A DNA stretch of 64,000 nt from a virus (Duplodnaviria > Heunggongvirae > Uroviricota > Caudoviricetes), in the IMG/VR virus record IMGVR_UViG_3300043410_000565, positions 28,236 through 92,235 of that record, one strand, 5' to 3'. Each line of letters begins with the position of its first letter. Position 1 is the stretch's first letter. The position numbers were made by a program, and so were the translations under genes. The notes under the pieces are model-generated. The model was not told the DNA's origin. It ran no database searches and saw nothing but the letters and a program-made list of their open reading frames with translations. This document shows, piece by piece, positions 874-21,104 of the stretch.

Positions 874-1167
874 ATGTACCACGAACCAGATTTTAAAACA
901 TACGATTACACGATCGGTGGGAAGCTGGTCGTTGGTAGAGCAGTCATTGATGAATCATATCAGCATCTGATGTTGAGTGATGCTGAGTCTCGACAAAGGG
1001 TCAAAGAGAAACTGATATCTGACATGGCTCAGTACATGTTGGAGAATAACCTCGTTGAGTTTATGCAGCAGAAGAATGTGGACATGACAACCACTGTTGT
1101 TGTTCGTGCTTACTTGGCTCCAAACAACGAGATAAAGATTTTAAGACTAGCAAATAAGATTGTATGA
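874..1167 (+). CDS. hypothetical protein
   Basis: ORF in a tightly packed operon. Confidence 0.75.
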   Translation: MYHEPDFKTYDYTIGGKLVVGRAVIDESYQHLMLSDAESRQRVKEKLISDMAQYMLENNLVEFMQQKNVDMTTTVVVRAYLAPNNEIKILRLANKIV

Positions 1168-1403
1168 AGTATTATACCATTGTATTCCCAGGCGAGTACG
1201 GGCAACATGTCCAAGAAACATGGAGCGAGGCTCAGATTCTAACATCATATTATGCTTATTGGTGTTCTATGATGATTCAGAACGTGGCTGCTCCCGATCT
1301 ATCAGAAGTTAATTGTATTGATGATTGGTGTATTGTCCACTGGGCAATGGAGACTGATCAATTTGGAAATAAGTTATGTCAGACTACACTCAACAATGCC
1401 TAA
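1164..1403 (+). CDS. hypothetical protein
   Basis: ATGA overlap with the upstream gene. Confidence 0.75.
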   Translation: MKYYTIVFPGEYGQHVQETWSEAQILTSYYAYWCSMMIQNVAAPDLSEVNCIDDWCIVHWAMETDQFGNKLCQTTLNNA

Positions 1404-1544
1404 TCGCTGCGGTTTATAACCTTACGATTCTCTTTCTATGTACTACTTTGGTAGTCCTTTTCAACTTCAGTCCTTGGTGGTTCGTGGGGGCTGTAATGAT
1501 CATGGCTTCGGTCTCTGAAGAAGACAAAAAAGATTGAAAATCGC

Positions 1545-1573
1545 TTTACTTTAATTCACAGGTGCGGTATAAT
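1545..1573 (+). promoter_or_regulatory. sigma70-type early promoter
   Basis: TTTACT-17 bp (begins TTAATT)-TATAAT, followed by RBS AAGGAG and ATG 1596. Confidence 0.85.
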
Positions 1574-1595
1574 TACTGTATTGAAGGAGAAAAGT

Positions 1596-1799
1596 ATGGG
1601 ATTCGAAAAGAAGGTTCTTGAAGTTGCAACCCCTCATCTTAGCAAAGGTGAGAGTGCTTACTTTTTCAACGGGACATTGTTCATTGATGGTGTTGAGCGT
1701 ACATCGCGAAAGATCTTCTCTGATATCATGATGAAGATCACTCCCATGGTCAAAGTCTCTAAGACTGGTCCAGAAGAATTTGCTATTGATTTTGTTTGA
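1596..1799 (+). CDS. hypothetical early protein
   Basis: AAGGAG RBS upstream of ATG 1596. Confidence 0.8.
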   Translation: MGFEKKVLEVATPHLSKGESAYFFNGTLFIDGVERTSRKIFSDIMMKITPMVKVSKTGPEEFAIDFV

Positions 1800-1806
1800 G
1801 GTTGTT

Positions 1807-2886
1807 ATGCGTAAACTTGCTAAGATTGTTAAGATTGATGAACTGAACCCGATCGAGGGTGCTGATGCCATTGAATGTGCTGTCGTTGGTGGCTGGAAAG
1901 TTGTAGCCCAGAAGGGTCTCTACAACGTTGGTGACCTTGCTGTTTACTTTGAGATTGATTCATGGATTCCCCATGAGTTGGCTCCATTCCTGTCTAAAGG
2001 TAAAGAGCCACGTGAGTTCGAAGGTGTCAGGGGTGAACGTCTGAAGACTATCAAGCTGCGTGGTCAGTTGTCTCAAGGTTTGCTGATGCCTCTGGAATAC
2101 ACTGAAGACGGTGGATTCTATTTCCGTCGCACCGATGGTGATATTCAGAATGTTAGCGAAGACCAAGACGTTACTGAATTGCTTGGCATCAAGAAGTGGG
2201 AGAAGCCCGTCAATGCCCAGCTGGCTGGTGTGTGTCGTGGTAATTTCCCGTCACTGATCCCTAAGACTGATCAAGAACGTGCTCAAAACCTGAAGAAAGA
2301 GATTGTTGCTGCGAATGAGGCTGGCACTCAATTTGAAATCACTGAGAAGCTAGAAGGCTCATCTATGACCGTATATCGTATGGTTGTGGATGGTGAAATG
2401 CAGTTCGGTGTTTGCTCACGTAACATGGATCTCAAGGAAGTTGCTGGTAATACATTCTGGGACGTTGCTCGTCAGGATGATATCGAGGCTAAGATGATTG
2501 CTGTTGATGAGTTCTGGTCATTCGCTATTCAAGGTGAGTTGATTGGTCCTAACATCCAAGGTAACATCTACAAACTGTCTCAACCCGAATTCCGAGTGTT
2601 CGATGTTTACGATATTCAGGCTGGTAAGTATCTGAACCCTGAAGCACGTTGGCAATTGATCACTCGTATGGGATTGAAGCATGTGCCAGTTTTGGCTTTC
2701 ACTGCTTCTTTGTACGACACACTTGGTATCAGCGACATGAACCAACTGTTGGACTTTGCCGATGGTAAGTCTATGAACGGTGCTGCTGGCCATGAGCCAC
2801 TTCGCGAAGGTGTAGTGTTCAAAGAGGTCAACGGAGGCATGACTTTCAAGGTTATCTCTAACCAGTACCTGTTAGGTGAAAAGTAG
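1807..2886 (+). CDS. RNA ligase (DRB0094/Rnl2-like) with an N-terminal OB/tRNA-binding-like domain
   Basis: nucleotidyltransferase motif I TEKLEGSS, QGELIG, EFRVFDV, REGVVFK and C-terminal FKVISNQYLL; GAGG RBS before ATG 1807. Confidence 0.9.
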   Translation: MRKLAKIVKIDELNPIEGADAIECAVVGGWKVVAQKGLYNVGDLAVYFEIDSWIPHELAPFLSKGKEPREFEGVRGERLKTIKLRGQLSQGLLMPLEYTEDGGFYFRRTDGDIQNVSEDQDVTELLGIKKWEKPVNAQLAGVCRGNFPSLIPKTDQERAQNLKKEIVAANEAGTQFEITEKLEGSSMTVYRMVVDGEMQFGVCSRNMDLKEVAGNTFWDVARQDDIEAKMIAVDEFWSFAIQGELIGPNIQGNIYKLSQPEFRVFDVYDIQAGKYLNPEARWQLITRMGLKHVPVLAFTASLYDTLGISDMNQLLDFADGKSMNGAAGHEPLREGVVFKEVNGGMTFKVISNQYLLGEK

Positions 2887-2990: not shown

Positions 2991-3668
2991 ATGAAATTGC
3001 TGAGCACTGGTAACCCAAAGTTGATCAAAGGTGAGAAGAAAGGTTATTTGTCATTCGTTCTTCACCTGTCTCCCGCTGATGTGGCTGGTTATGAAACCTG
3101 CCCCAAACGCACTGCTGGTTGCACAGCTGCTTGCCTGAATACCGCTGGTCGTGGTGGTATGTTCAAACCTGGTGGCACAAATACTATTCAAGAAGCACGC
3201 AAGCGCAAGACACGTATGTTCTTCGAGCAACGTGATCAGTTCTTGGCTGATCTTGAAGCCGATATTCGTAAGGGTATCAAACAAGCAGAGAAGAAGGGTA
3301 TGATCCCTGCTTTCCGTTTGAATGGCACCAGCGATATCGCTTGGGAAAAGTATGGTATCATCCAGAAGTTTCCCGAAGTCCAATTCTATGATTATACAAA
3401 GATCCGCAATCGTAAAGTCGCTGCACTGAGCAACTACCACTTGACCTTCTCCAAGGCTGATGGTAACGATATGGATGTTCGTTTGGCTGCATCTGCTGGC
3501 ATGAATGTGGCAGTTGTATTCAAAAATGTACCCGATTCTTATATCGGTCGTACAGTTATTGATGGCGATGATACCGATCTGCGATTCCTTGATCCAAAGG
3601 GTGTTGTGGTTGGTTTGAAAGCCAAAGGTCGTGCTCGTAAAGACACTTCTGGTTTTGTAGTTGTTTAA
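2991..3668 (+). CDS. Gp88-like conserved phage protein, putative Fe-S/Cys-cluster enzyme
   Basis: HLSPAD...CPKRTAGCTAACLNTAGRG, FRLNGTSDIAWE, FYDYTK, DGDDTDLRFLDP motifs. Confidence 0.7.
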   Translation: MKLLSTGNPKLIKGEKKGYLSFVLHLSPADVAGYETCPKRTAGCTAACLNTAGRGGMFKPGGTNTIQEARKRKTRMFFEQRDQFLADLEADIRKGIKQAEKKGMIPAFRLNGTSDIAWEKYGIIQKFPEVQFYDYTKIRNRKVAALSNYHLTFSKADGNDMDVRLAASAGMNVAVVFKNVPDSYIGRTVIDGDDTDLRFLDPKGVVVGLKAKGRARKDTSGFVVV

Positions 3669-3684
3669 ATAAGGAAATTATATC

Positions 3685-4041
3685 ATGGCAAAAGCTCAAA
3701 TTATTCAAGACTCTATCGACGGCATCTTCGGCGAGAAGGTTAATGTTGGTGACCAAGTTATGGTCGTCACGACTGGTTATTCTCATCGAGTGAATGTTCG
3801 TAAGGGTATCTACAAAGGTTATGTTGATACAGGAATGGGCTGGCGAAAGAGCAAGAAAGCAAAGATCGAGATCAATACCACTCGTTCTATTCAAGTGAAA
3901 CCCGATGGCAATGAGTTTTGCTGGAACAAGGATTATGATTCCAAGACATGGCCAGAAGTCAGCAAGACTCTGACCCGCAAGGAAGTTCCTTATACATACA
4001 TGACAACCCTTCAACTCAACCGCATCGCAACTATCAAGTAA
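3685..4041 (+). CDS. hypothetical protein
   Basis: AAGGA RBS; ORF track. Confidence 0.8.
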   Translation: MAKAQIIQDSIDGIFGEKVNVGDQVMVVTTGYSHRVNVRKGIYKGYVDTGMGWRKSKKAKIEINTTRSIQVKPDGNEFCWNKDYDSKTWPEVSKTLTRKEVPYTYMTTLQLNRIATIK

Positions 4042-4316: not shown

Positions 4317-4660
4317 GAGTAATTATTGCTGGTGGTCGCGATATCCATGACTACAACCTAGTGCTTGATGCTATCAACGAATGTAACTTCAACATTCAGG
4401 CTGTTGTATCTGGTGGAGCCAAAGGTGTTGATGCTCTTGGTGAGCGATATGCTGAGTCTGCCGATGTACCATTGCATATATTTGAAGCTGATTGGGAGAC
4501 GCATGGTCGTGCTGCTGGTCCAATCCGTAACCGAAAGATGGCAGAGAATGCCGATGCTTTAATCGCTATCTGGGATGGTAAATCCCGTGGCACTAAGAAT
4601 ATGATTGAAACCGCAACCAAGAAAGGTTTGCTGGTATTTGTAAAGAGGACTGATGTATGA
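4313..4660 (+). CDS. SLOG-superfamily protein (YspA/DUF2493-like)
   Basis: MRVIIAGGRD, VSGGAKGVDALG, GRAAGPIRNRKM, WDGKSRGTKNMI. Confidence 0.85.
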   Translation: MRVIIAGGRDIHDYNLVLDAINECNFNIQAVVSGGAKGVDALGERYAESADVPLHIFEADWETHGRAAGPIRNRKMAENADALIAIWDGKSRGTKNMIETATKKGLLVFVKRTDV

Positions 4661-4911: not shown

Positions 4912-5269
4912 TACTGTATTAATCCTAATGACGCTTCTGATCCTGAAGCACTTCATCGTTGATTTCCCTCTTCAAGGACCATATCAATGGATGAATAAAG
5001 GGACATATCTACATCCTGGTGGCTTACTGCATGCGTTCATGCACGGAGTAGCAACCATGCTATGTTTTACTTGGTATGCTCCGCAAGCTGCGTTCTGGTT
5101 GGGTTTATTCGATGCCGTTATCCATTATCACGTGGACTGGGCAAAGATGAATATCAATGCCAAATTCGGTTGGAAAGCCGACCAACATCCACAATTCTGG
5201 TATCTAATGGGAGCCGATCAGCTGGCTCATTATCTAACATATATCTGGTTAATCTATCTTGTAGTATGA
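4904..5269 (+). CDS. DUF3307-like membrane protein
   Basis: KHFIVDFPLQ, LLHAFMHG, HYHVDWAK, GADQLAH; hydrophobic. Confidence 0.8.
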   Translation: MADTVLILMTLLILKHFIVDFPLQGPYQWMNKGTYLHPGGLLHAFMHGVATMLCFTWYAPQAAFWLGLFDAVIHYHVDWAKMNINAKFGWKADQHPQFWYLMGADQLAHYLTYIWLIYLVV

Positions 5270-7341: not shown

Positions 7342-7598
7342 GAGAACTAAAACAACTCCTCCTGCTGGCTCCGAAAGGACATATAGATCCCATAGCAATG
7401 AAAACCATCAAGGAATGGGATAAATCTCCTAAAGCAATCCAGATATTAAAGACTCTAGATATGTGTGTTCACTCGGGATTAGCCTCAGGATTCGTTATAC
7501 ATGTCCTGGAGCAAATGTTTAATAAGGCTCTGAAGAAAGAGAAAACCACATACGAAGAAGTGGTAAAGGAAGCAGTATGGAGAAAGAATTCGACATAG
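7338..7598 (+). CDS. hypothetical protein
   Basis: ORF track; overlap. Confidence 0.65.
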   Translation: MRELKQLLLLAPKGHIDPIAMKTIKEWDKSPKAIQILKTLDMCVHSGLASGFVIHVLEQMFNKALKKEKTTYEEVVKEAVWRKNST

Positions 7599-7780
7599 TA
7601 ATAGCCACTCTAGAGGAAAAGAAACAAAAACTCTGGAAAATGACCCAAGATAATATGAAGATGGATATGGTCAATATGATGGATGATATCCGTCTAGAAC
7701 AGATTCAAGAGTTAAATGAAGCCATGGGTATGTGGTTATTATGGAAAGAAGAGAAATCTAATAGAGGCTCAGGGGTATAA
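7577..7780 (+). CDS. hypothetical protein
   Basis: AAGGA RBS; ORF track. Confidence 0.6.
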   Translation: MEKEFDIVIATLEEKKQKLWKMTQDNMKMDMVNMMDDIRLEQIQELNEAMGMWLLWKEEKSNRGSGV

Positions 7781-16277: not shown

Positions 16278-16525
16278 TGCAACTAACACAAAAATATATT
16301 AATTTACCTGTACCTCAACCACAACCATCAACTGCGCCATTTGTTAAACCTTTATCGTATGAGTTTCGTGTTGCAGAACTACTAGACGAAGAAGGTAAAA
16401 TTGAGAAGGTTCAATTACAGCTGCAAATTTGGGAACATGATGAATATGGGTCAGGTATTGTAAAGCAGCATTGGAGCGCTGTCCCTCGTATTAAAATTGA
16501 TAAAAATGGGTCAATAATCCCTTGA
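16277..16525 (+). CDS. hypothetical protein
   Basis: TAATG coupling. Confidence 0.7.
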   Translation: MQLTQKYINLPVPQPQPSTAPFVKPLSYEFRVAELLDEEGKIEKVQLQLQIWEHDEYGSGIVKQHWSAVPRIKIDKNGSIIP

Positions 16526-16550
16526 CTTTAATTCCGGATTAGGGTATAAT
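16522..16550 (+). promoter_or_regulatory. sigma70-type promoter, leaderless geometry
   Basis: TTGACT-17-TATAAT-6 nt-ATG 16557. Confidence 0.85.
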
Positions 16551-17381: not shown

Positions 17382-18143
17382 ATGGCGACAAAGACCAGAG
17401 CAAAACTTCTAGATAATGATTTAAGTGACAAACCAAAAGAGGTTAAAGTAAATAACTCTTTGAAAATTAGGATCGATGATTTAAAAACTTTTGATCCATT
17501 AACTGCGCATCAAAAAGACTTTTATGACGCTTACAAGCGACAAGATTATTTTATTGCATTACACGGTGTAGCAGGTACAGGTAAAACTTTCATCGCTTTG
17601 TATAAAGCATTGGAAGAAGTATTAGATAAAAGCAATCCGTTCAATAAGATTATTATCGTTCGTTCGGCAGTACCATCTCGTGAAGTTGGTCACCTTCCTG
17701 GGGATTTAAATGAAAAAACAGAAATCTACAGACAACCTTACCAGCAAATCTGTACCACTCTCTTTGGAAGACCTGATGCCTACCAACGGTTGGAAGAGCA
17801 ACACCACATTGAATTTATTTCTACATCGTTCATCCGTGGGATGTCCTTCGACGATGCTATCATCATCGTTGACGAAATGCAAAACCTAACATACGAAGAA
17901 ATCGACACAGTTATGACTCGTGTTGGTTATCGTTCTAAAATTATCTGGTGTGGTGATTATCGCCAAACCGACTTGAATAAGAAAAAGAATGACATGTCTG
18001 GTATTCTTAAGTTCTTTGAAATTGCTCAACACATGAGAGCTTTCACTAGAATTGAGTTCACACCTGATGACATTGTTCGTTCATCACTAGTGAAAGATTA
18101 TATCCTCGCCAAACTACGATATGAGGATTATGTAGAGAAATAA
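17382..18143 (+). CDS. phoH: PhoH-like ATPase
   Basis: GVAGTGKTF, GHLPGDLNEK, SFIRGMSFDDAIIIVDEMQN, GDYRQTDL. Confidence 0.92.
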   Translation: MATKTRAKLLDNDLSDKPKEVKVNNSLKIRIDDLKTFDPLTAHQKDFYDAYKRQDYFIALHGVAGTGKTFIALYKALEEVLDKSNPFNKIIIVRSAVPSREVGHLPGDLNEKTEIYRQPYQQICTTLFGRPDAYQRLEEQHHIEFISTSFIRGMSFDDAIIIVDEMQNLTYEEIDTVMTRVGYRSKIIWCGDYRQTDLNKKKNDMSGILKFFEIAQHMRAFTRIEFTPDDIVRSSLVKDYILAKLRYEDYVEK

Positions 18144-18796
18144 TGAAAACATTTATACATCATGATTTTGCGAAGTTAGAAAGGGATACAGCTGCTGACG
18201 GTCGTCGAGTTTATAAGACGCCAGAAGGTAAGCTGTATCCTTCAGTCACTTCTATCACAGGTGTTAATAGCACCTTCAACAAGAGTGCGTGGATTCAGCG
18301 TGTTGGCGTTGACGAAGCCAACCGTATTACTCAGCGAGCACTTGACCGTGGCACTCGCATCCATTCTCTCTGTGAAAACTTCTTACTTGGTAATGAAGTA
18401 AAGATTGATATGTTTGATCAAGACATGTGGAGCACTATGCTACCTTTGTTGAACAAGATCGACAATATTCATTGCCTTGAAACTCCACTGTATTCTGACT
18501 TTCTACAAGCAGCTGGTACAGTTGACTGTATTGCGGAGTATGAAGGTAAGTTATCCGTCATCGACTTTAAGACTTCATCTAGGGTTAAAGAGCGTGATGA
18601 TATTCACAACTACTTCGAGCAGACTGCAGCTTATGCCGTTATGTTTGAAGAACGAACAGGTATTCCAATCGGTCGTTTAATTATCTTGATGGTGATTGAC
18701 GATGATGCACCAAGAGTGTTTATTGAGAAACGTGATGGTTGGATTGCAGGATTCCGTAAGTCACGTATGGATTATCGTCAAAAGTATAATATATAG
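18143..18796 (+). CDS. PD-(D/E)XK (Cas4-like) exonuclease
   Basis: YPSVTSI, RGTRIH, AGTVDCIAEY, IDFKTS, QTAAYA. Confidence 0.88.
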   Translation: MKTFIHHDFAKLERDTAADGRRVYKTPEGKLYPSVTSITGVNSTFNKSAWIQRVGVDEANRITQRALDRGTRIHSLCENFLLGNEVKIDMFDQDMWSTMLPLLNKIDNIHCLETPLYSDFLQAAGTVDCIAEYEGKLSVIDFKTSSRVKERDDIHNYFEQTAAYAVMFEERTGIPIGRLIILMVIDDDAPRVFIEKRDGWIAGFRKSRMDYRQKYNI

Positions 18797-18800
18797 AATA

Positions 18801-19113
18801 TTGCTGTAATCCCTTCAAAGCGAAGGACTTCTGGACGGGGGTTCGACTCCCCCCATCTCCACCAAAAGAGAATTGACACGGTGTACAACGTGCATCACTG
18901 AGTAATCAAATGGTTCAGACGTAGAGCTGAAATTCAGTTTTCTTTTGATGGGGATGCCATGGTTTCGACAGGGGTAGATAGTAGCGACGGCAGCACGACA
19001 GGAGTAGTCGTTAAAAGCAAATCAAAGTAAATGCAAACGATGAAGTTTTCGCATTGGCAGCCTAAACGCTGACTAGGGTTTCGATGGGTTTCCTCGTAAC
19101 AGAATAACCCATC
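18801..19113 (+). ncRNA. ssrA: circularly permuted two-piece tmRNA, tag ANDEVFALAA
   Basis: acceptor piece with T-arm GGGGG-TTCGACT-CCCCC and CATCTCC-ACCA end (18864) comes before the coding piece starting GGGGATG (18950). The 7-bp acceptor stem has G3:U70 and A73. Tag ORF GCAAACGATGAAGTTTTCGCATTGGCAGCCTAA at 19033-19065. The outer ends are approximate. Confidence 0.93.
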
Positions 19114-19130
19114 ACTAATTCGGAGATATT

Positions 19131-19634
19131 ATGATTGGTGTTGTATTAGGTAATGGTCCGAGTCGTGAACATTACGACAGAAAAGGTGATATTGTTCTTG
19201 GATGTAATATTCCCAATGAAGAACATAGCGTAGATGCCACTGTTATTTGCGATGAAGAGATTGCGTGGATTATTAAAAATGACTTGACTTTAATTCAGGT
19301 TCCAGTTATAATATCTACTAAGGTGTTTGAAAAGTTTAAGGAATTCCGTATCGAGGATCAATTCATAATCTTGGATGTTTTCAAACCCAAAGACTGGTAC
19401 AATGCTGCCCACTATGCAGCCGAGTATCTAATTAAGAATACTGAGTGCGACGAGATTCATTTGTGGGGGTGTGATTCTATTTTTGAGAATACAGTTTCCT
19501 CTACAACTGGTAAACTAATCCAACAAACAACAATTGGCGATACTAGGTTTATCAAGAATTGGCGTAGAGTTTGGAATGAGATTCATATCGACAACCCCGA
19601 TGTGCATTTCGTAGCTATGAGAATGCCTAAATAA
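19131..19634 (+). CDS. hypothetical protein, possibly a Rossmann-like glycosyltransferase/MptE-like fold
   Basis: VVLGNGPSR, GCN, AAHYAAEYL, IHLWGCDS; GGAG RBS; the function is a guess. Confidence 0.55.
   Translation: MIGVVLGNGPSREHYDRKGDIVLGCNIPNEEHSVDATVICDEEIAWIIKNDLTLIQVPVIISTKVFEKFKEFRIEDQFIILDVFKPKDWYNAAHYAAEYLIKNTECDEIHLWGCDSIFENTVSSTTGKLIQQTTIGDTRFIKNWRRVWNEIHIDNPDVHFVAMRMPK
19284..19312 (+). promoter_or_regulatory. cassette-type promoter inside a CDS
   Basis: TTGACT-TTAATTCAGGTTCCAGT (17)-TATAAT. Confidence 0.65.
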
Positions 19635-20028: not shown

Positions 20029-20547
20029 ATGCGTAAAGCAAAATTAATACTACTTGGTTCATTCATTGCAATCTGCTCCATCATTGGGTTAGGTTCTACG
20101 ATTGAACAAAACAAAATAATGGAGATTGCTTATAGCGATCTAACAAAAGATGCCAAAAAGCAAGTAGACTGCTTGGCTGAAAATATCTACCACGAAGCTG
20201 GTTATGAATCTGAAACGGGTAAACAAGCTGTTGCTCTGGTTACTCTAAACAGAACCCAAGATGAACGTTTTCCTTCGCAAATTTGCGAGGTAGTAAAACA
20301 AAAGACACAAGGTACATGTCAGTTCAGCTGGTTCTGTATGCCTGTTAAATTAAACAGGAACACTGATGCGTATAAACAGTCACTAGAAGTTGCGCTGTTT
20401 GTATATGCTAACTATGAGAAGTTAAAAGATGTCACACATGGTGCTCTTTACTATCATGCCGACTACGTCAACCCTCGTTGGCGCAATGTTGAAAAGACAA
20501 CCGTTATTGGTCGTCACATTTTTTATAAGGAAAAACTGAAATTATGA
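20029..20547 (+). CDS. cell wall hydrolase, SleB/Hydrolase_2 family
   Basis: CLAENIYHEA, AVALVTLNR, CQFSW, GALYYHADYVNPRW, IGRHIFY; N-terminal hydrophobic anchor. Confidence 0.9.
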   Translation: MRKAKLILLGSFIAICSIIGLGSTIEQNKIMEIAYSDLTKDAKKQVDCLAENIYHEAGYESETGKQAVALVTLNRTQDERFPSQICEVVKQKTQGTCQFSWFCMPVKLNRNTDAYKQSLEVALFVYANYEKLKDVTHGALYYHADYVNPRWRNVEKTTVIGRHIFYKEKLKL

Positions 20548-21104
20548 TGAATAAATTAAATCTACAATTAACTGATGGTGGTGATTCGAAGCATTCGTTT
20601 TTCCTCATGATGGAAGAAGTTAGCCTCCCGACTGTTAAGTCTGCAGTTGAATGGATTCTTGAAGCTAACTTTACCGAAGAACGACCAGAGATGCTTAACC
20701 TCATCATCACTTCTCCAGGAGGTGACTTGAATGCAGCGTTTGCATTGATTGACGTTATGCGTGGATCAGCTATTCCAGTTCGTACCATTGGGCTTGGACA
20801 AATCGCTTCTGCTGGTCTAATGATTTTCATTGCTGGTGAAAAGGGACAACGTATCTTGACGCCAAATACTTCAATTCTATCTCACCAATATTCATGGGGT
20901 GCTATTGGTAAAGAGCATGAATTGTTTGCTCAAATTAAAGAGTTTGACCTCACTACTAAAAAGGTTATTGACCACTACAAGAAATGTACTGGTCTTGCGG
21001 ATAAGAAGATTCGCGAAGTTCTATTACCACCACAAGACGTTTGGTTATCCCCAGTTGAAGCCAAAAAACTTGGTTTGTGTGACGATGTTAAGGATCTAAA
21101 ATGA
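20544..21104 (+). CDS. clpP: ClpP-like protease proteolytic subunit
   Basis: ITSPGGD, GQIASAG (Ser), SILSHQ (His), DVWLSPVEAKKLGLCD. Confidence 0.88.
   Translation: MMNKLNLQLTDGGDSKHSFFLMMEEVSLPTVKSAVEWILEANFTEERPEMLNLIITSPGGDLNAAFALIDVMRGSAIPVRTIGLGQIASAGLMIFIAGEKGQRILTPNTSILSHQYSWGAIGKEHELFAQIKEFDLTTKKVIDHYKKCTGLADKKIREVLLPPQDVWLSPVEAKKLGLCDDVKDLK

What the first reader, a model, noticed from the sequence alone, without database searches (positions are those of the whole stretch)
18801..19113. Phage-borne circularly permuted (two-piece) tmRNA
Seen: the 3' acceptor piece (ends CCA 18864) precedes an 85-nt intervening segment and the coding piece (18950). The acceptor stem is GGGGATG/CATCTCC with the Ala identity pair G3:U70. 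Inter-piece helices CAGGGGT (18969)/ACTTCTG (18827) and GCAGC (18990)/GCTGT (18803) are present, and the intervening segment is closed by AAAAGAGAATTGA/TCAGTTTTCTTTT. Known: permuted tmRNAs occur in Alphaproteobacteria and some Betaproteobacteria and cyanobacteria. Inference: the phage supplies its own ribosome-rescue RNA; no smpB is in the window.
Basis: partly seen in the sequence, partly recalled or inferred. Interest (0 to 1): 0.7.

Follow-up and report, generated by a model that had tools for sequence, protein, structure and literature searches.

The report
Phage two-piece tmRNA, structured spacer RNA
This T4-like phage carries a real two-piece gene for tmRNA, the RNA that frees stalled ribosomes, which is already a published kind; the new detail is that the spacer cut out of it is a conserved, folded small RNA that related phages swap between their tmRNA genes.

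Summary
Confirmed at every coordinate. ARAGORN calls a permuted tmRNA; Rfam beta_tmRNA scores 161 bits (cut-off 84) and tmRNA_permuted 146 (47). The 160,850-bp T4-like genome has 30 tRNAs and no smpB, so host SmpB is needed. The kind is published (53 two-piece phage tmRNAs, PMC9004378), and this scan's index lists 288 matching notes in at least 239 genomes, several describing protein genes in the spacer. The host cannot be read from the subtype: cultured Stenotrophomonas and Ralstonia phages also carry beta-type genes.

New here: the 85-nt spacer belongs to a non-coding family absent from Rfam, found in 16 distinct phage tmRNA genes plus a truncated one, never elsewhere. It folds as a four-way junction: 9 of 30 pairs show compensatory change (0/500 shuffles; kinship not controlled), and two conserved loops may pair. 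It averages 87% identity while the mature tmRNA pieces average 67%. The closest relative (98% in mature pieces) has a different spacer, so spacers are exchanged as cassettes. Expression, processing, tagging and the spacer RNA's function are untested; no read data were available.

The parts
18785..18790 (+). Likely -10 element (TATAAT) inside the 3' end of the exonuclease gene; no consensus -35
   Evidence: Sequence; lies at or two bases before the -10 position of the RF01850 consensus; similarity to relatives L015, L035, L023, L030, which have other DNA upstream, begins at about 18784. The sigma-70 scan did not call it. Function inferred.
18797..18864 (+). Acceptor piece (about 65-68 nt; 5' end inferred): inter-piece strands 18803-18807 and 18829-18833, T arm 18837-18853, acceptor 3' strand 18854-18860, discriminator A and encoded CCA
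   Evidence: In 63 phage homologues acceptor stem 434/440 and T stem 314/315 cells paired, G3-U70 63/63.
18865..18949 (+). Intervening segment: conserved four-way-junction RNA. P1 18865-18876/18934-18945; P2 18877-18892 (4 bp, 8-nt loop); P3 18893-18912 (GNRA-capped); P4 18914-18931 (5 bp, 8-nt loop); possible 4-bp pairing of P2 loop with P4 loop
   Evidence: Family of 16 distinct carriers; RNAalifold finds P1, P2, P4 unaided, 7 compensated pairs; 9 of 30 pairs compensated, 97.6% of cells paired; no Rfam family.
18950..19113 (+). Coding piece (about 164 nt; 3' end inferred): acceptor 5' strand 18950-18956, inter-piece strands 18969-18973 and 18990-18994, hairpin 18996-19010, resume region 19028-19035, H-type pseudoknot 19075-19113
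   Evidence: The pseudoknot's two stems were found in about 32 of the 34 loop-motif-bearing phage genes that reached before the script stopped, with varied stem sequences.
19033..19065 (+). Tag reading frame, (A)ANDEVFALAA-stop
   Evidence: the C-terminal LAA is the usual Clp degradation signal (established knowledge).
18143..18796 (+). Upstream neighbour: T4-like PD-(D/E)XK exonuclease gene, after phoH (17382-18143)
   Evidence: PHROG 298 and 170, Pfam PF12705 and PF02562. Permuted tmRNAs lie within 5 kb downstream of this gene in many relatives.
19131..19634 (+). Downstream 167-aa gene of unknown family, probably co-transcribed (no terminator after the tmRNA)
   Evidence: No family in PHROGs or Pfam and nothing above cut-off in NCBIfam; terminator scan.

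Best explanation
The phage transcribes one precursor: acceptor piece, spacer, coding piece. Host tRNA-processing enzymes cut it (RNase P at G18950, 3' trimming to CCA18864) into two base-paired pieces of about 65 and 164 nt. Host AlaRS charges the G3-U70 stem, host SmpB and EF-Tu deliver it to stalled ribosomes, translation resumes on the tag, and host Clp proteases (perhaps also the phage ClpP-like protein) remove the product. It keeps ribosomes cycling during infection, alongside 30 phage tRNAs. The spacer is a stem-closed cassette slot that phages exchange by recombination in the short conserved flanks. Here it holds a selected four-way-junction RNA that maturation would release as an about 85-nt RNA. 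Shown: gene anatomy, conservation, absence of smpB, spacer exchange, spacer covariation. Inferred: processing, charging, tagging, benefit to the phage, release and role of the spacer RNA.
For: Rfam and ARAGORN calls; invariant G3-U70 and compensated stems in 63 phage genes; intact resume region, tag and pseudoknot; no SmpB in a genome rated 100% complete while the control search found it. Two-piece tmRNA works in Caulobacter and is thought to mature via RNase P and tRNase Z (PMC3985003). Exchange: L015 is 98% identical in the mature pieces and about 80-88% in flanking genes (with L034, L035) but has another 105-nt spacer, itself 100% identical to the spacer of L051; L309 and L311 share 95% of the spacer but 66-67% of the mature pieces. 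Of 55 phage pairs with mature identity of at least 90%, only 3 share a spacer. Spacer structure; 10 of 10 members found through the P4 pattern also keep the P2 hairpin.
Against: My searches found no paper testing a phage two-piece tmRNA in infection. A phage tmRNA-like RNA without a tag frame (DS6A) inhibits host tmRNA (PMC11915505, PMC4131195), so presence alone does not prove rescue. The spacer alone folds no better than shuffles (z -1.36). The covariation control ignores kinship and the structure was drawn from the same sequences. The loop-loop pairing has no double compensation. The closest relative by exonuclease (L058) has no tmRNA within 5 kb downstream, and many others lack one there.
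Confidence: 0.8

Rival explanations
1. The tmRNA is made but acts against the host system: it titrates SmpB or redirects tagging, or serves to recycle host proteins, rather than rescuing phage translation.
For: The DS6A precedent (PMC4131195); the recycling idea is raised for Melnitz (PMC9004378); the phage has no SmpB of its own.
Against: DS6A lacks the tag frame; here the frame, resume region and ALAA end are intact and conserved across the group (25, 26, 73).
Confidence: 0.1
2. The tmRNA is kept mainly as a processing scaffold for releasing spacer cargo; trans-translation is secondary.
For: L051 carries a tag-less copy of the tRNA-like domain with two stacked spacers upstream of its full tmRNA; L019 stacks two spacers with a CCA-ended minihelix between them. 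Phage spacers have a median of 80 nt against 4-42 nt in 20 host genes.
Against: A scaffold needs no tag frame or pseudoknot, yet both are conserved; one phage gene has a plain 25-nt spacer (L110).
Confidence: 0.07
3. The spacer family is a neutral or selfish hitchhiker: a recently spread cassette whose fold only has to stay stem-closed so that processing works. (Rival for the spacer only; compatible with an active tmRNA.)
For: High identity (74-100%) could reflect recent spread; dozens of unrelated spacers fill the same slot; earlier scan notes report homing-type nucleases in such spacers (unchecked); MFE z-score not significant.
Against: Compensatory changes fall in the inner helices P3 and P4, not only in the closing stem; the P2 and P4 loops stay nearly fixed while the P4 stem changes in four of five pairs; GNRA-type caps are kept on differing P3 stems.
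Confidence: 0.3
4. The gene is a decayed or host-derived remnant (integration-site fragment, contamination).
For: ssrA is a common integration site (PMC11915505).
Against: It is complete, lies between T4-like genes in a single viral contig (7, 13), groups with phage rather than host genes and is syntenic in many relatives.
Confidence: 0.02

Closest known systems
Betaproteobacterial two-piece tmRNA (Rfam RF01850; Rhodocyclaceae such as Thauera, loci L168, L258)
   Same: Permuted order, acceptor and T stems, both inter-piece helices, resume region, 10-residue tag ending ALAA, downstream pseudoknot, spacer closed by a stem plus 4 nt.
   Different: Viral location; about 64-74% identity in the coding piece; spacer 85 nt and multibranched against 4-42 nt simple hairpins; no terminator hairpin after the gene; scores 161 bits against 214-305 for complete Rhodocyclaceae genes.
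Two-piece tmRNAs of aquatic phages: Methylophilales phage Melnitz, pelagimyophages, cyanomyophages, Menderavirus (PMC9004378 and its Table S1)
   Same: Complete permuted ssrA in a lytic T4-like or large phage; common but not universal in the group (17 of 47 Melnitz-like contigs). Melnitz is the best cultured match to this phage's gp32, 50%.
   Different: Melnitz's gene is reported as alphaproteobacterial-like with a glutamine riboswitch; this one is beta-type with no riboswitch hit. The paper's passages on tmRNA say nothing about spacer content.
tRNA-Ala gene inside the intervening sequence of one permuted tmRNA, and a repeat element inside another (PMC11915505)
   Same: Shows that the excised segment can hold cargo, including an RNA gene.
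   Different: Single curiosities from non-phage records; here a recurring, covarying, non-tRNA family exchanged among phages.
T4 small stable RNAs (species 1 and 2, rnaC and rnaD) and YrlA-type Y RNAs (RF02553; PMC4201824)
   Same: Small phage RNAs made by, or shaped for, tRNA-processing enzymes; M. smegmatis YrlA is cut by RNase P. The T4 part is from my own knowledge.
   Different: No sequence or Rfam match; the spacer RNA has no T-loop consensus, no CCA and no Y-type handle.

Membership tests
Permuted tmRNA (RF04321) | Score above the Rfam gathering cut-off over the whole model | tested here: met
   145.6 bits against 47, positions 1-213/213
Permuted tmRNA (RF04321) | 3' tRNA-like half with CCA precedes the 5' half, separated by an intervening segment | tested here: met
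Permuted tmRNA (RF04321) | 7-bp acceptor stem with G3-U70 and A73 | tested here: met
   G18952-U18858, A18861; 63/63 in phage homologues
Permuted tmRNA (RF04321) | Resume region and open tag frame ending in a hydrophobic degradation signal | tested here: met
   Tag 19033-19065 ending ALAA
Permuted tmRNA (RF04321) | Pieces held together by helices beyond the acceptor stem | tested here: met
   18990-18994/18803-18807: 309/314 cells paired with compensation; five conserved pairs at 18969-18973/18829-18833
Permuted tmRNA (RF04321) | Processing into two stable pieces in vivo | not testable with these tools
Permuted tmRNA (RF04321) | Alanylation and SmpB-dependent tagging | not testable with these tools
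   Needs bench work; no smpB in the phage
beta_tmRNA (RF01850) | Best-scoring subtype model, above cut-off | tested here: met
   161.3 bits against 84; other clan matches scored lower
beta_tmRNA (RF01850) | Pseudoknot 3' of the tag | tested here: met
   Stems 19075-19078/19091-19094 and 19083-19090/19106-19113; about 32 of 34 genes reached (partial run)
Any Rfam family, for the spacer RNA | Match to a curated model | tested here: not met
   Only tmRNA models pass; other matches are far below cut-off
Hammerhead ribozyme, for the spacer RNA | Core motifs CUGANGA and GAAA around three stems | tested here: not met
   By inspection of alignment A2 neither motif is conserved; no Rfam hit
tRNA or YrlA, for the spacer RNA | T-loop and D-loop consensus, CCA or Y-RNA handle | tested here: not met
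   Cloverleaf-like topology only; loops lack the consensus; no ARAGORN or Rfam call

The most novel reading that the evidence does not exclude
Aquatic T4-like phages use the maturation of their two-piece tmRNA as an expression device: the excised spacer is an exchangeable slot, and here it yields a stable, trans-acting, about 85-nt four-way-junction RNA with a loop-loop contact, of a family not in Rfam, for example a decoy or ligand for an RNA-binding defence protein.
Probability: 0.3. Interest if true: 0.72.

Novelty: new variant of a known kind. Interest (0 to 1): 0.42.

Why it matters
The tmRNA itself adds one more example to a published class. It keeps open a real but old question: why lytic phages carry tmRNA without SmpB. 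The spacer result is the useful part. A segment treated as disposable is longer in phages than in hosts, moves independently of the tmRNA, and here carries a covarying RNA fold. If it is released and active, it defines a new small-RNA family and a route by which phages express and shuffle RNA cargo using host tRNA-processing enzymes. This can be tested cheaply in E. coli. The data also warn against inferring a phage's host from its tmRNA subtype.

Tried and rejected
Host assignment: the tree of mature pieces puts the window's gene in a phage clade whose sister relation to Rhodocyclaceae has support of only 0.34, and beta-type genes pass the cut-off in cultured Stenotrophomonas, Ralstonia and 'Synechococcus' phages, so no host is claimed. 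The genome scan with the acceptor pattern mostly returned one-piece genes of Chloroflexota. Protein in the spacer: no start-to-stop frame of note in six frames. My first spacer structure (7-bp second hairpin) was dropped after more members broke it and supported the 4-bp P2 instead. Hammerhead and tRNA readings were rejected. Spacer family elsewhere: no second copy in this genome, none in 50,697 cultured phage records, none in 101 sampled Burkholderiales genomes (104, no positive control); L343, which shares 16 nt, does not score; one search used a faulty pattern and gave one known member and four unrelated hits. Helix registers for the tag hairpin and terminal hairpin were mis-set and are not used. 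One search stopped part-way. The 559-nt 'host spacer' is a false parse of a one-piece gene; two phage entries there are also parse artefacts and one is a stacked array. The paper on the beta lineage (PMC516066) was not held. TAG recoding was considered because of a CUA tRNA: TAG is rare but used as a stop (6 of 113 long frames).

Full report
Observation. ARAGORN calls a permuted tmRNA with tag ANDEVFALAA. Rfam gives beta_tmRNA RF01850 161.3 bits (cut-off 84) and tmRNA_permuted RF04321 145.6 bits (cut-off 47), both over the full model.

Context. The window lies in a single 160,850-bp virus record rated 100% complete, with 30 tRNA genes outside the window and one tmRNA. Neighbours are T4-like: phoH, exonuclease, cell-wall hydrolase, ClpP-like protease, gp59, gp32. 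The best cultured gp32 match is Methylophilales phage Melnitz at 50%. SmpB is not found in the genome, while the same search finds it over the cut-off in 10 of 14 controls.

Anatomy. A TATAAT at 18785-18790 lies at or two bases before the -10 position of the RF01850 consensus, and similarity to relatives with other upstream DNA begins there; no -35 is evident, and read-through from a consensus promoter at 16522-16550 is also possible. In 63 phage homologues the acceptor stem is paired in 434 of 440 cells, the T stem in 314 of 315, G3-U70 in 63 of 63, and the 18990/18807 inter-piece helix in 309 of 314 with compensation. A two-stem pseudoknot follows the tag (19075-19113); both stems were present in about 32 of the 34 genes that reached. 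This is the pattern of a gene under selection as a working tmRNA.

Is it known? Yes. Buchholz et al. report 402 of 18,146 phage genomes with tmRNA, 133 unique, 53 of them two-piece, and 17 of 47 Melnitz-like contigs with permuted genes (PMC9004378). The 2025 tmRNA database lists 79 phage sequences (PMC11915505). One 36-base pattern returned 54 viral loci, nearly all permuted tmRNAs. Beta-type genes pass the RF01850 cut-off in cultured Stenotrophomonas phage Marzo, Ralstonia phage RsoM2USA and phage BUCT-ZZ01; from my own knowledge the first two hosts have one-piece genes, so the subtype does not name the host. The tree of mature pieces does not resolve it either. This scan's index holds 288 notes on the same theme in at least 239 genomes.

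The spacer is a slot. About 65 distinct phage genes have spacers with a median of 80 nt (25 to 237, plus a stacked array of 290), against 4-42 nt in 20 host genes. Nearly all are closed by a stem and 4 nt, as in most hosts, but the interiors differ: tRNA-like cloverleaves, small reading frames, multibranched RNAs. Spacer and tmRNA are uncoupled: of 55 pairs with mature identity of at least 90%, 3 share a spacer; of 29 pairs sharing a spacer, 3 have mature identity of at least 90%. For this gene, L015 matches the mature pieces at 98% and, with L034 and L035, the flanking genes at about 80-88%, yet has a different 105-nt spacer. Earlier scan notes had reached the same 'swapped slot' idea for protein cargo; I tested it independently here.

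The spacer here is a structured RNA. Its homologues occur in 15 other distinct phage tmRNA genes and one truncated one, always exactly between CCA and the coding piece, in genes with many different tags and five different acceptor stems. Mean pairwise identity is 87% for the spacer and 67% for the mature pieces, without correlation (rho 0.14; pairs not independent). RNAalifold predicts P1, P2 and P4 unaided, with 7 compensated pairs. Adding P3 and a 4-bp pairing between the P2 and P4 loops gives 97.6% of cells paired and 9 of 30 pairs with change on both sides; no shuffle of 500 reaches this and slid controls give at most 1. The junction is nearly perfect (0, 0, 1 and 2 unpaired bases). P2 was the search key for most members, so its invariance is partly built in; but all 10 members retrieved by a P4-only pattern also keep it. 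Limits: the shuffle ignores kinship, the structure came from these sequences, the loop-loop pairs show only one-sided changes and one mismatch, three rows are misaligned by one base in P3, and the window's spacer alone has a folding z-score of only -1.36. No Rfam family matches, nor any cultured phage record, nor 101 sampled Burkholderiales genomes. A word search for this combination and a sequence look-up with the spacer found no earlier scan note on this family, and six paper searches found no description.

Mechanism. Established for two-piece tmRNA: a permuted precursor is cut, probably by RNase P and tRNase Z, and the Caulobacter RNA is active in trans-translation with SmpB (PMC3985003). 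Inferred for this phage: the same route with host enzymes, giving extra or nuclease-resistant rescue capacity during infection (0.8). Maturation necessarily frees the spacer. Since hosts process spacers as short as 4 nt and phages tolerate dozens of unrelated ones, processing does not need the conserved inner loops; that argues for a role of the freed RNA itself (about 0.65 that the fold is selected, 0.3 that it is a stable trans-acting RNA). Exchange most simply occurs by recombination in the roughly 11-nt conserved flanks (inference). One further link: the spacer of L011 is 85% identical over 64 nt to the loop insert of a Y-RNA-like element in this phage's tRNA array, so the same cassettes move between tRNA-shaped scaffolds.

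Verdict. The finding as written is right but is a member of a published kind (alone about 0.2). The conserved, exchanged spacer RNA makes it a new variant worth a cheap test. Overall interest 0.42.

Noticed in passing
window 20544-21104: ClpP-like gene 1.4 kb downstream, with Ser, His and Asp at the expected motifs by eye. Among 80 exonuclease-anchored loci, 18 have it (63-85% identity) and 16 of those have a permuted tmRNA, but many tmRNA loci lack it within 5 kb and the overlap follows kinship.
   Followed up: partly
L259 4707-4895 (genome 14706-14894, outside the window): Stem-closed element with a CAGCAA box and tRNA halves in swapped order (YrlA-like). The insert between its halves matches the tmRNA spacer of L011 (85%, E 1e-13). 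Similar elements lie at L259 about 3440-3560, 3930-4000, 4510-4590, 4995-5090 and 7570-7630. No Rfam hit.
   Followed up: partly
genome 23198-23953 (L315): DUF2828 (PF11443) gene in a 488-aa frame at the end of the tRNA array, the Ro60-like partner proposed in earlier scan notes.
   Followed up: partly
genome 22029-22104: tRNA with CUA anticodon (amber suppressor-like); also in L001 and L310. TAG ends only 6 of 113 long frames.
   Followed up: partly
L051 about 1140-1920 (minus strand); L019 1084-1625: Stacked spacers: L051 has a tag-less tRNA-like domain with two cassettes separated by a CCA-ended minihelix, directly before a complete tmRNA with a third; L019 has two cassettes in one gene.
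   Followed up: partly
L060 1061-1522, L061 5866-6357, L071 4216-4624: Spacers that hold small reading frames, two with Shine-Dalgarno-like sites; the L060 frame has a homologue just upstream of the tmRNA in L082 and L083. The L024 spacer has a homologue upstream of the tmRNA in L105.
   Followed up: partly
window 18784-18800: The exonuclease-tmRNA junction is an insertion hot spot: L030, L033 and L035 carry 5.5-6.4 kb there; L058 has other genes and no tmRNA within 5 kb.
   Followed up: no
L262, L304, L305: Beta-type permuted tmRNAs (160-169 bits) in 1.7-2.3 Mb AT-rich genomes of a Burkholderiales family other than Rhodocyclaceae, 3 of 41 sampled.
   Followed up: no
L310 1415-1736 (minus strand): Permuted tmRNA with a seemingly long, basic tag frame of about 28 codons; missed by ARAGORN, RF04321 74 bits.
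   Followed up: no
window 19131-19634: 167-aa protein with an N-terminal GNGPS motif, no family hit; homologues near the same site in L061, L064, L070, L078, L085.
   Followed up: no
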